Shown here: in pieces, positions 60,755 through 61,579 of the stretch
Layout: the number at the start of each line of letters is the position of its first letter
How positions within the stretch are numbered: position 1 is the stretch's first letter
Position numbers and translations under genes: made by a program
Assembly (NCBI GenBank): GCA_963848295.1
Contig: CAWKDB010000002.1
Span: 800,001 to 864,000 of the forward strand
Source of the DNA: an uncultured delta proteobacterium
GTDB taxonomy: Bacteria; Myxococcota_A; Polyangia; Haliangiales; Haliangiaceae
DNA: 64,000 nt
Direction of reading: 5' to 3'
The notes under the pieces: generated by a model
What the model was told of the DNA's origin: nothing
What the model saw: only the letters and a program-made list of their open reading frames with translations
Databases searched by the model: none

Positions 60755-60952
60755 GCCGATGGGTAGGAACGTCTCTCTCTCGCCCGTCGCGCCGCACTCG
60801 CGCGGGTCCCGTGACGAGCGCGGGCACTACGTCCCGCACGCGCCGGTCGATTCAACTCCGCGGCGGTCGATCGCACACGTCGGCGCACTCGGCGCTCGGC
60901 GCGGGACAAGCGCGAAGCGGCGCAGGGCGAGAGAGACGTTCCGCCCACCGGC
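60755..60952 (-). ncRNA. Putative structured RNA/DNA element, 198-nt rod hairpin upstream of copy A
   Basis: Basal stem GCCGGTGGG.GGAACGTCTCTCTCGCCC / GGGCGAGAGAGAGACGTTCC..CCCATCGGC; core 60778-60930 homologous to 61403-61555. Confidence 0.72.
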
Positions 60953-60989
60953 GCGAGCGAAGGAGCATCGAGTGCTCGAAGGCCGGTCG

Positions 60990-61364
60990 CCGTCGCTGTT
61001 GCTGTTGCCGTTGCCGTTGCCGTGGCCGTCGCCGTTGCCGTCGCCGTTGCCGTTGCCGTTGCCATTGCCGTCGCCGTCGCCGTCGCCGTCGCCGTCGCCG
61101 ACGCCGTCGCCGTCGCCGTCGCCGTTGCCGCCGACGCCGGTGCCGCCGCCGATGCCGATGCCGACGCCGGTGCCGCCGCCGATGCCGATGCCGACGCCGA
61201 TGCCGCTACCGACGCCGATGCCGCTGCCGACGCCGATGCCGCTCCCGCTGCCGACGCCGATGCCGACGCCGATGCCGCTGCCGACGCCGATGCCGATGCC
61301 GATGCCGCTGCCGACGCCGCTGCCGCCGCCGATGCCGACGCCGATGCCGACGCCGATGCCGACG
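60990..61364. repeat. Bipartite hexamer array: 23 CCGTYG-type units (60990-61127), a 3-nt CCG, then 39 CCGAYG-type units (61131-61364)
   Basis: Read directly; the composition switch coincides with a 3-nt register shift. Confidence 0.92.
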
Positions 61365-61380
61365 CCACCTTTCGCCCCTC

Positions 61381-61579
61381 GCGGCTTCCGATCGCCGGGC
61401 CGTCGCCCTGCGCCGCTTCGCGCCAGCACCGCGCCGAGCGCCGAGACCACCGACGCCTGCGAGGGGCCGCCGCAGAGTTGGGTCGACCGACGCGTGCGGA
61501 GATCTGTGCTCGCGCTCGTCACGGCGCCGGCGCGAGTGCGGCGCGACGGGCGAGACGGCCCCGGCGATCGGTGCGCCGC
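61381..61579 (+). ncRNA. Putative structured RNA/DNA element, 199-nt rod hairpin upstream of copy B
   Basis: Basal stem GCGGC..CCGATCGCCGGGCCGTCGCCC / GGGCGAGACGGCCCCGGCGATCGG...GCCGC; same core as copy A. Confidence 0.72.

What the first reader, a model, noticed from the sequence alone, without database searches (positions are those of the whole stretch)
60755..61579. Two ~198-nt rod hairpins with a conserved 153-nt core and covarying stems: candidate new structured RNA
Seen: 60778-60930 (minus) and 61403-61555 (plus) align without gaps with 26 mismatches (~83%). The core ends pair (TCGCCC-TGCGCCGC-TTCGCG with CGCGA-GTGCGGCGC-GAC-GGGCGA), as do inner segments (CGAGCGC/GCGCTCG; CCGACG/CGTGCGG). 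Outside the core the basal stems are unrelated in sequence yet each pairs: GGAACGTCTCTC/GAGAGACGTTCC in A and CCGATCGCCGGGCCG/CGGCCCCGGCGATCGG in B. An inner helix also differs while keeping most pairing (GTCCCG/CGGGAC in A; GCACCG/CGGCGC in B). Total lengths match (198 vs 199 nt) and both end about 21 nt before the ATG. Inference: selection acts on structure, not just sequence. Wobble patterns do not settle whether RNA or ssDNA, or which strand, is functional.
Basis: partly seen in the sequence, partly recalled or inferred. Interest (0 to 1): 0.85.

Follow-up and report, generated by a model that had tools for sequence, protein, structure and literature searches.

The report
Folded leader of selfish gene cassettes
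The two hairpins are copies of a conserved ~200-base folded element that sits just upstream of small four-helix-bundle genes in a multi-copy gene cassette of soil myxobacteria; it matches no catalogued RNA family and is likely an mRNA leader that hides the ribosome-binding site.

Summary
Both ~198-nt rods exist at the stated coordinates and fold far better than shuffles (z -7.0 and -5.6). Between them, 12 of 50 consensus pairs are compensated. They are not independent evidence: they are the leaders of two mirror-image paralogous PF05635 (23S-IVS/Avd-like four-helix-bundle) genes. The 1.6-kb module lies in (GCCGNN)n arrays and recurs at 10 loci here, plus a divergent pair and a solo copy. A covariance model finds 23 sense copies in this genome and 66 in the loci held from Kofleriaceae relatives. 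On those 66 (61 distinct), 36 of 50 pairs carry compensatory changes. There is no Rfam match. New here: in relatives the same leader precedes GxxExxY/PDDEXK_3 nuclease genes, and the rod is closed by a helix pairing the Shine-Dalgarno with an upstream complement that differs in A and B. RNA is not proven. G-U is no commoner than A-C in the stems (17:1 in this genome's tRNAs), so a DNA-level hairpin role remains a serious rival. The scan has found this cassette type before, in this genome and in other myxobacteria; I found no paper that describes it.

The parts
60057..60336 (.). Outer hexamer array, (GCCGNN)n on the + strand, between the stop of the left neighbour gene (TAG 60041-60043) and cassette A
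   Evidence: TRF run on the genome; 47 CCG versus 1 CGG on the + strand
60337..60409 (-). 3' tail of gene A, with short predicted hairpins
   Evidence: Sequence and fold
60410..60733 (-). Gene A, 107 aa four-helix-bundle protein (PF05635 / TIGR02436)
   Evidence: Intact in 10 of 10 copies, dN/dS 0.16
60737..60745 (-). Shine-Dalgarno segment of A (GGAGGA), paired in the predicted leader fold
   Evidence: MFE and centroid structures of 60731-60972(-); flank duplexes
60755..60952 (-). Hairpin A, a 198-nt rod. Conserved core 60778-60930, lineage-specific basal stem
   Evidence: (185.6 bits)
60958..60969 (-). Anti-SD segment of A (GAU-G-CUCC / UCCUUCG) in the conserved stretch upstream of the rod
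60985..61366 (.). Central hexamer array, (GCCGNN)n on the + strand, between the two divergent cassettes
   Evidence: 61006-61366, 60.7 copies of a 6-nt unit; 63 CCG versus 2 CGG
61368..61374 (+). Anti-SD segment of B (CCUUUCG), at the very 5' edge of the conserved cassette
61381..61579 (+). Hairpin B, a 199-nt rod. Conserved core 61403-61555, lineage-specific basal stem
   Evidence: (161.3 bits)
61587..61593 (+). Shine-Dalgarno segment of B (CGAAAGG), paired over 7 bp with 61368-61374 in the predicted fold
   Evidence: MFE and centroid structures of 61362-61603(+)
61601..61921 (+). Gene B, 106 aa four-helix-bundle protein (PF05635 / TIGR02436); weak match to PDB 2GSC
   Evidence: Intact in 9 of 9 full copies, dN/dS 0.12
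61922..61995 (+). Conserved 3' tail of B with a small hairpin; cassette homology ends about 90 nt after the stop codon

Best explanation
The two hairpins are copies of a conserved, oriented ~200-nt rod that lies directly upstream of the start codon in a multi-copy gene cassette, and it likely acts in the cassette's mRNA as a leader whose closing helix is predicted to pair the Shine-Dalgarno with an upstream complement, which would limit or gate translation of the cargo gene and would offer a long duplex to RNase III. Shown: the rod, its covariation, its fixed place and orientation relative to the cargo gene, its multi-copy spread, its use with two unrelated cargo families, and the SD/anti-SD complementarity. 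Inferred: that the whole rod is transcribed, that the fold forms in RNA, that it controls translation or processing, and any role of RNase III. How the cassette spreads is unknown.
For: 1. Structure under selection. On 66 model hits (61 distinct), 88.8% of cells pair against 71.9% in shuffles. 36 of 50 pairs have changes on both sides, and 0 of 500 shuffles reach the observed percentage paired, that count or the covariation score; slid partners pair in 32-50% of cells. An independent MAFFT/RNAalifold run gave 21 of 31 pairs compensated.
2. No arm-to-arm homogenisation. Among the recent copies in this genome, polymorphic stem pairs are single mismatches or G-U: 0 of 15 (A) and 0 of 9 (B) are WC-to-WC swaps. 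Variable columns are rarer in stems (16 in 154 paired columns versus 18 in 64 unpaired for A; 9 in 132 versus 32 in 91 for B).
3. Slow evolution. The leader's mean distance among copies is 0.048 (A) and 0.067 (B), against dS of 0.18 and 0.21 in the adjacent genes.
4. Orientation and position. The model scores 116-186 bits on the gene-sense strand and 41-55 bits on the other. All 23 own sense hits precede a PF05635 gene, one of them truncated. In five relatives, 23 of 24 assessable hits have a cargo gene or its remnant downstream on the same strand.
5. The SD is inside the fold. In A and in B both the MFE and the centroid structures pair the SD with a segment 5' of the rod. The pairing partners differ between the copies: UCCUUCG/CGGAGGA in the A-type copies versus CCUUUCG/CGAAAGG in B, with two positions changed on both sides. 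In 31 of 46 cassettes the SD (all but at most 1 nt) lies in the best duplex between the own flanks. Own SD windows pair with the own 5' flank 1.65 kcal/mol better than foreign ones do; 11 of 42 beat shuffles at p<0.05; mean z is -0.95 against -0.25 for a coding-window control.
6. Cargo independence. The same leader precedes GxxExxY/PDDEXK_3 genes in relatives, which argues for a cargo-independent cis role.
7. Functional cargo. The genes are under purifying selection (dN/dS 0.16 and 0.12).
Against: No transcript start or end was obtained. The only RNA-library cover is one contig of a relative, in a soil metatranscriptome (60692-60972), and a DNA-run contig stops at the same place. No sigma-70-like promoter was found (0 sites). 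In B the anti-SD sits at the very edge of the conserved cassette, so a promoter would have to lie in the variable hexamer array.

Wobble does not favour sense RNA. G-U versus A-C is 86:47 overall but 35:44 once two conserved U-G columns are left out. The stems of 52 tRNAs of the same genome give 68:4. The antisense strand folds more stably in 42 of 55 cases (mean 6.1 kcal/mol). As DNA, both strands also fold into the rod.

The SD/anti-SD signal is moderate. 15 of 46 cassettes lack it. In a test with the whole flanks, the own pair was the best of its row in only 1 of 47. The 42 'representatives' are still related to one another.
Confidence: 0.45

Rival explanations
1. DNA-level cis-element. The rod, folded as single-stranded DNA or extruded as a cruciform, would be the site that an unknown enzyme recognises to copy or move the cassette, in the manner of integron attC sites, IS200/IS605 ends or REP/RAYT. 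The RNA fold would then be a by-product.
For: The cassette is dispersed at 10 loci plus a divergent pair and a solo copy, with unrelated flanks. It is absent at the orthologous site in 7 of 7 left-flank loci and 2 of 2 right-flank loci of relatives. The rod lies 15-40 nt from the 5' edge of cassette homology. The same rod serves two unrelated cargo families, one of them a PD-(D/E)XK nuclease. Strict Watson-Crick pairing with no G-U preference (35:44 versus 68:4 in tRNAs) fits DNA better than RNA. Both DNA strands fold. Conserved bulges and mismatches recall the extrahelical bases of attC (recalled).
Against: No recombinase or transposase lies in or beside the module; the neighbours are a gene with no Pfam match and a rubrerythrin. 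attC core sites are absent: 0 of 61 have both. There are almost no gene-less copies (0 of 23 own; 1 of 24 in relatives). Extension of the pairing to the SD, with matching changes in A and B, has no obvious DNA-level reason. There is no PF13366 gene in this genome, which is 85% complete, although the cassette has spread here.
Confidence: 0.27
2. A free-standing ~200-nt small RNA, or an RNA partner of the four-helix-bundle protein as Avd has in diversity-generating retroelements, encoded next to its protein gene.
For: A stable rod with a conserved apical sequence (invariant and near-invariant columns around CCGCNGAG.TG). PF05635 proteins are relatives of Avd, which works with nucleic acids (passages seen in PMC10053308).
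Against: The same rod precedes an unrelated GxxExxY gene, so a specific protein partner is unlikely. No terminator lies between the rod and the SD (21 nt; one search found none). The SD is part of the fold. There is no RT, TR or VR in the module.
Confidence: 0.08
3. A palindrome without function of its own, kept complementary by arm-to-arm repair or conversion and carried along by the cassette.
For: Symmetric treatment of G-U and A-C. Both strands fold equally well in the apical part.
Against: Recent copies carry uncompensated single mismatches and no swapped pairs (0 of 24 polymorphic pairs), so the arms are not quickly homogenised. Bulges, a U-G column (38 of 61) and internal loops are conserved across genera. 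Stems vary 3-5 times less than loops. The leader evolves slower than synonymous sites.
Confidence: 0.05
4. An autonomous MITE/REP-like dispersed repeat that merely landed upstream of these genes.
For: Multi-copy, palindromic, intergenic.
Against: 0 of 23 own model hits are gene-less, and 1 of 24 assessable hits in five relatives. Position and orientation relative to the start codon are fixed. No Rfam match and no plasmid or phage match.
Confidence: 0.03

Closest known systems
ORF-bearing intervening sequences (IVS) of 23S rRNA (Coxiella burnetii, Leptospira, Brucella, Xanthomonas S23p); PMC4990558, abstract and Introduction read
   Same: The gene family is the same (S23p / PF05635 four-helix bundle). 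In both, the gene is joined to a long stable stem. Both look selfish and are sporadically distributed. In the IVS, RNase III cuts the stem.
   Different: This element is not in rRNA. The stem lies wholly 5' of the ORF instead of enclosing it. The flanking arrays have one polarity and cannot pair with each other. The gene has a good SD and is under purifying selection. The cassette is present in many copies per genome, embedded in hexamer arrays.
Leader hairpins that sequester the Shine-Dalgarno, and RNase III-processed 5' leaders (general knowledge, recalled; no paper read here)
   Same: A cis-acting fold between promoter and start codon, with the SD paired to an upstream complement.
   Different: The rod is ~200 nt long and nearly perfect, and it is conserved in its core sequence. 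It is shared by unrelated cargo genes and travels with a mobile cassette. There is no G-U enrichment.
Integron gene cassettes with attC sites (recalled)
   Same: Small genes of varied families, each joined to an imperfect palindrome whose structure is kept while the sequence drifts, with conserved unpaired bases.
   Different: No R''/R' core sites (0 of 61). The hairpin is 5' of the gene and about twice as long. The cassettes are dispersed, not in an array. No integrase was seen; a genome-wide search was not done.
REP/REPIN elements with RAYT transposases (recalled; named as closest by earlier scan notes on GxxExxY cassettes)
   Same: Dispersed intergenic hairpins linked to a small gene.
   Different: In this lineage there are almost no gene-less copies. 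There is no Y1 transposase. The hairpin is far longer.
Avd of diversity-generating retroelements (passages seen in PMC10053308)
   Same: Homologous four-helix-bundle protein.
   Different: No reverse transcriptase and no template or variable repeat in or beside the module.

Membership tests
23S rRNA intervening sequence (IVS) | Inserted in helix 9, 25 or 45 of a 23S rRNA gene and transcribed within the rRNA precursor | tested here: not met
   The module lies between a protein gene ending at 60043 and a rubrerythrin gene (62094-62513). Rfam found no rRNA in 60000-62500.
23S rRNA intervening sequence (IVS) | Bordered by complementary ends that form a stem enclosing the ORF | tested here: not met
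   The rod is entirely upstream of the ORF. The flanking arrays all read GCCGNN on one strand.
23S rRNA intervening sequence (IVS) | ORF of the S23p / PF05635 family | tested here: met
   PF05635 at 45.3 and 52.6 bits, with a cut-off of 33.8; TIGR02436; PDB 2GSC at E 7e-5.
23S rRNA intervening sequence (IVS) | Excision by RNase III | not testable with these tools
   Needs cleavage mapping in vitro or in an rnc mutant.
Any Rfam 15 family | Score at or above the family's gathering threshold | tested here: not met
   The only hits were two chance matches to mir-598 in the hexamer array (17.3 and 16.3 bits against 69; E 4.5 and 8.3).
REP / MITE-type dispersed palindrome | Many gene-less copies spread through intergenic regions | tested here: not met
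   0 of 23 own sense hits are gene-less; 1 of 24 assessable hits in five relatives.
Integron attC | Inverse core / core sites RYYYAAC ... GTTRRRY at the ends of the palindrome | tested here: not met
   1 of 61 has the first motif, 0 of 61 the second, and 0 both.
Integron attC | Array next to an IntI integrase gene | not tested
   No integrase gene lies in the module or among its direct neighbours. The genome was not searched for IntI.
Retron msr-msd | Reverse-transcriptase gene directly downstream of the structured ncRNA | tested here: not met
   The downstream genes are PF05635, or GxxExxY in relatives.
Diversity-generating retroelement | Avd gene together with an RT and template/variable repeats | tested here: not met
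   The 1.6-kb module holds only the two PF05635 genes. Flanks differ at every locus. Neighbours here are a gene with no Pfam match and a rubrerythrin.
Cis-regulatory mRNA leader (SD-sequestering hairpin) | Lies between the transcription start and the start codon, and the SD is paired in the conserved fold | tested here: inconclusive
   SD pairing is predicted in A and B and in 31 of 46 cassettes, with moderate controls. The transcription start is unknown.

The most novel reading that the evidence does not exclude
The rod is the shared cis-element of a so far undescribed class of self-spreading mini-cassettes in Myxococcota. These carry either an Avd/S23p-like four-helix-bundle gene or a GxxExxY PD-(D/E)XK nuclease gene. 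The nuclease cassettes would be the autonomous members: they would cut or resolve the extruded hairpin DNA and so mobilise all cassettes that bear it, seeding the hexamer satellites and genome rearrangements. On this reading rRNA intervening sequences are the special case of this element class that landed in rRNA.
Probability: 0.12. Interest if true: 0.9.

Novelty: new variant of a known kind. Interest (0 to 1): 0.62.

Why it matters
PF05635 (23S-IVS protein / Avd-like) and GxxExxY are two very widespread small-protein families of unknown role. Here both hang on one conserved 200-nt fold, in a cassette that multiplies within genomes and sits at a synteny break. That gives the cis-element a concrete, testable handle: leader mutations, RNase III mapping and hairpin-DNA assays. 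It also gives a covariance model to find the cassettes, and a link between rRNA intervening sequences and a broader class of selfish cassettes. If the fold acts in RNA, it is a new large cis-regulatory family. If it acts in DNA, it points to an unknown way of moving genes.

Tried and rejected
Sequencing runs: no run holds more than 0.12 of the sampled words. Laying X1, X18, X19 and X20 gave only relatives' contigs. X19 gave nothing and X18 only three short partial pieces. The RNA contig of X20 over 60692-60972 ends where a DNA contig also ends, so it says nothing about a transcription start.

Covariance-model searches of class (150 and 120 genomes), of family (60 genomes) and of five handles got no answer from the machine. 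Smaller searches by handle worked. The taxonomic range is therefore known only from BLAST, from the loci held, and from 9 genomes searched with the model.

The weak BLAST hits in three other genera (G009, G110, G145) were not confirmed by the model.

Promoter and terminator scan: 0 and 0.

Plasmid and phage collections: no match.

A sigma-54-like reading of the stretch upstream of hairpin A was dropped, because about half of the copies have AG in place of the essential GG (read).

A coding reading of the hexamer arrays as (Gly-X)n was dropped, because some arrays hold 7-nt units that break the frame.

The whole-flank duplex permutation showed nothing (own pair best in 1 of 47), because GC-rich array sequence pairs promiscuously. 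The narrower SD-window test replaced it.

Sense-versus-antisense energy and wobble counts did not settle the strand or the molecule.

Literature searches found no description of such cassettes or leaders: PF05635; 'rRNA intervening sequence protein' / 'four helix bundle protein' / TIGR02436; GxxExxY / PDDEXK_3 / TIGR04256 / PF13366; IVS + S23p; Myxococcota + repeats.

Full report
OBSERVATION. The arms 60778-60930 and 61403-61555 are 153 nt long and 83% complementary (I2), and they align without gaps. The basal stems are exact inverted repeats of unrelated sequence (I13 and I21). As RNA, the 198-nt (minus strand) and 199-nt (plus strand) stretches fold into rods of -132.9 and -136.2 kcal/mol, with z -6.96 and -5.62; 0 of 200 shuffles did as well in either case. 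Each rod ends 21 nt before an ATG. On a 50-pair consensus, A and B share 31 pairs and differ on both sides while staying paired at 12. None differ on one side only; 5 are unpaired in one or both, and 2 have a gap.

WHAT SURROUNDS IT. The two ATGs open two divergent paralogous genes: 60410-60733(-), 107 aa, and 61601-61921(+), 106 aa. They are 77% identical as DNA (I1). Both belong to PF05635 / TIGR02436, the 23S-rRNA-IVS or Avd-like four-helix-bundle family, and gene B has a weak match to PDB 2GSC. Between the hairpins lies a hexamer array (61006-61366, 60.7 copies), and another lies beyond gene A (60057-60336). All arrays read (GCCGNN)n on the + strand, with CCG:CGG counts of 47:1, 63:2 and 6:1, so they cannot pair with each other to enclose a gene. 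The two hairpins are therefore parts of one inverted duplication of a unit made of leader, gene and 3' tail. They are not two independent occurrences.

A MULTI-COPY CASSETTE. The whole module, gene A - hairpin A - array - hairpin B - gene B, recurs at 10 loci of this 7.8-Mb genome (85% complete) at 91-99% identity. One of those copies has a truncated gene B. There are also one divergent pair, one solo unit and one fragment. Homology runs from the stop of gene A to about 90 nt past the stop of gene B, and beyond the outer arrays the flanks are unrelated. Of 31 PF05635 matches in the genome, 22 are these cassette genes; the other 9 were not examined. The genes are intact in 10 of 10 A copies and 9 of 9 full B copies, and they are under purifying selection (dN/dS 0.16 and 0.12).

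At the window's locus the cassette is absent from the orthologous place in 7 of 7 left-flank loci and 2 of 2 right-flank loci of genus relatives. There the left gene is followed at once by a convergent gene that is missing here. The cassette therefore sits at a synteny break.

RELATIVES. BLAST finds the hairpin in 42 of 147 genomes of the order. One of the 42 is the unpublished G038, and several hits are weak partial matches. Named records with the gene are Kofleriaceae / Haliangiales MAGs. I built a covariance model (R1) from 48 hairpins. In this genome it finds 23 hits on the gene-sense strand (116-186 bits) and only weak echoes on the other strand (41-55 bits). It finds 66 hits in the 87 loci searched and 25 hits in five further genomes of the genus. 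It finds none in three genomes of other genera where BLAST had given weak hits. Larger model searches failed.

STRUCTURE IS SELECTED. RNAalifold on a plain MAFFT alignment gave 31 pairs, 21 of them with compensatory changes. I then derived a 50-pair structure from single-sequence folds and counted it on the model-fitted alignment; both steps lean towards the structure. On it, 88.8% of 2884 cells pair, against 71.9% in shuffles and 32-50% with slid partners. 36 of 50 pairs have changes on both sides (479 cells), and 0 of 500 shuffles reach the observed percentage paired, that count or the covariation score; 147 of 500 reach the count of further pair types. The basal stem is free in sequence: at least five unrelated versions occur in this genome alone. 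The core keeps blocks such as CGCCGAGCGC and GCGCTCGTCACGG, a bulged TCA, and a U-G column present in 38 of 61 sequences.

The arms are not kept alike by quick conversion. Among the recent copies here, 0 of 24 polymorphic stem pairs are swapped Watson-Crick pairs; they are single mismatches or G-U. Stems hold 3-5 times fewer variable columns than loops. The leader also diverges more slowly (0.048 and 0.067) than synonymous sites of the adjacent genes (0.18 and 0.21).

No Rfam family matches. attC core sites are absent. Gene-less copies are nearly absent: 0 of 23 here, and 1 of 24 assessable hits in relatives.

TWO NEW POINTS.

First, the same leader serves another cargo. In three genus relatives, model hits of 71-98 bits are followed by a GxxExxY / PDDEXK_3 nuclease gene instead of a four-helix-bundle gene (TIGR04256 at 127 bits, PF13366 at 124-127 bits). 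The 25 hits in five relatives break down as follows:
- 15 intact and 2 decayed four-helix-bundle genes;
- 3 intact and 2 truncated GxxExxY genes, plus 1 locus cut by a contig end that has the GxxExxY-type linker;
- 1 with nothing downstream, and 1 not assessable.
This genome has no PF13366 gene. A specific partnership between the rod and its cargo protein is therefore unlikely.

Second, the fold reaches the ribosome-binding site. When each leader is folded from just inside the array to the ATG, both the MFE and the centroid structures close the rod with a helix between the SD and an upstream complement. In A this is GAU-G-CUCC with GGAG-G-AUC; in B it is CCUUUCG with CGAAAGG. In the alternative 7-bp register of A, found in the other A-type copies (UCCUUCG/CGGAGGA), two positions differ from B on both sides. 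In the G050/G057 lineage the basal stem runs straight through the SD (CCUCCGUGAUUCGCCCC with GGGGCGAAUCACAAGGAGG), and variants such as GCUCC/GGAGC and GCGAU/AUCGC keep the pairing.

Across cassettes the SD lies in the best own-flank duplex in 31 of 46. Own SD windows pair with the own flank 1.65 kcal/mol better than foreign ones do. 11 of 42 beat shuffles at p<0.05. Mean z is -0.95, against -0.25 for a coding-window control. The signal is moderate and the samples are related. A cruder test with the whole flanks showed nothing (own pair best in 1 of 47).

RNA OR DNA. This remains open, and the evidence points both ways.

For RNA:
- the fixed sense orientation;
- the SD inside the fold;
- the need of a compact cassette for its own expression signals;
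- one metatranscriptome contig of a relative that spans the leader and the gene start, which is weak because a DNA contig ends at the same place.

Against sense RNA:
- G-U is not favoured over A-C: 86:47 overall, and 35:44 without two conserved U-G columns, whereas 52 tRNAs of this genome give 68:4;
- the antisense strand folds better in 42 of 55 cases, though not in the apical part (29 versus 25);
- both DNA strands fold into the rod;
- no promoter was recognised, and in B the anti-SD is the first conserved base stretch after the array.

VERDICT ON MECHANISM. I commit to the mRNA-leader reading at 0.45. On this reading the leader is a long rod that hides the SD and would be a natural RNase III substrate, as the stems of rRNA intervening sequences are (PMC4990558, abstract and Introduction read). 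The DNA-level hairpin, acting as the cassette's propagation site, stands at about 0.27.

COMPARISON AND NOVELTY. The closest described thing is the ORF-bearing IVS of 23S rRNA: the same gene family beside a long stem. Two defining features fail here, however. The element is not in rRNA, and the stem does not enclose the ORF. So it works like an IVS-type cassette without being one.

Earlier notes of this scan, which I treated as leads, describe the hexamer satellites and 'hairpin-plus-gene' cassettes in this same genome (e1-3910770). They also describe leader-bearing four-helix-bundle cassettes in other myxobacteria (e1-7342930, e1-6554997) and hairpin-bounded GxxExxY cassettes in many phyla (e1-1211929 and others). 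My own checks agree with the first of these. They add three things: the covariation statistics, the shared leader for both cargo families, and the SD pairing. My literature searches found no paper that describes such cassettes or this leader. Supplements were not consulted.

OTHER LEADER TYPES. More distant four-helix-bundle genes in Polyangiaceae and other Myxococcota MAG loci carry sequence-unrelated hairpins in the same place. One type, aligned from 11 loci, shows 13 of 28 pairs compensated. They often sit next to other short tandem repeats.

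Noticed in passing
window 60057-60336, 60985-61366, about 61990-62045; G000 cassette loci listed: Every cassette is bracketed by hexamer arrays that all read (GCCGNN)n on one strand. The variable two bases differ from locus to locus (GCCGAA, GCCGAT, AATCCG, GGATCCGGCAGC and others), and the arrays run right up to the neighbours' stop codons. 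Some hold 7-nt units, so they are not coding. Similar arrays also occur away from cassettes: 181 merged arrays with a period that is a multiple of 6 and a length of at least 60 nt, coding ones included.
   Followed up: partly
L042:1447-2235, L046:1447-2377, L035 (G087, G103 and G032 of the same genus): The same leader rod precedes GxxExxY / PDDEXK_3 nuclease genes. Between rod and gene lies an extra ~100-nt conserved linker (a small hairpin plus a GGAGA SD). No hexamer arrays are evident upstream.
   Followed up: yes
L079, L080, L082, L084, L086-L088, L093-L095, L100 (Polyangiaceae and other Myxococcota MAG records): A second leader family, unrelated in sequence, lies 7-28 nt upstream of distant PF05635 genes. 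It is Y-shaped, ~110 nt long, and has the motif GCGTGCTCG. 13 of 28 pairs are compensated in 11 sequences. It often sits behind GGGATC, TCCGAC or GTCGAT tandem repeats.
   Followed up: partly
L097, L098, L101-L103: Further hairpin types, again unrelated, lie directly upstream of still more distant PF05635 genes. A long stem beside the gene looks like a family-wide rule.
   Followed up: no
window 57500-60043 and 62081-64000 compared with L107-L115: The cassette sits at a synteny break. In 6 of 7 relatives the left gene is followed within 5-20 nt by one conserved convergent gene that is absent here (L112 continues differently). The left and right flanks lie about 4 kb apart in the opposite relative orientation in several genus genomes.
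   Followed up: partly
G000:C2:903952-904217 and G000:C10:727195-727324 (outside the window): A decayed cassette fragment has a deletion that joins the 3' part of the gene to half of the hairpin. One module has a gene B cut after 130 nt.
   Followed up: no
downstream of gene A in G000 copies C10_1501, C11_317, C2_610, C2_1180, C2_1461: In five to six copies, but not in the window, gene A is followed by a conserved ~190-nt tail (GCGCCGGC...GCGCCGGCG hairpin, then ...GGTGTCAGCA...GATGTCTTGAGCAC). Both gene types end with a small TCCGGCA/TGCCGGA-type hairpin.
   Followed up: no
L048, L050, L065 (other genus genomes): Elsewhere the paired cassettes are tail-to-tail (convergent) and join two distant paralogues (about 70% and about 38% identity to protein A). 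Here the pair is head-to-head, with 68% identical proteins.
   Followed up: no
G000:C2:797188-797472 (2.5 kb before the window start) and 8 other places: Nine PF05635 matches in this genome are not hairpin cassettes of this family. Some score higher against Pfam than the cassette genes do. Their context (DGR or other) was not looked at.
   Followed up: no
window 60692-60972: A 289-nt contig from a soil metatranscriptome run (X20) of a relative covers the start of gene A and the whole of hairpin A. It has 24 differences and 7 gaps.
   Followed up: partly
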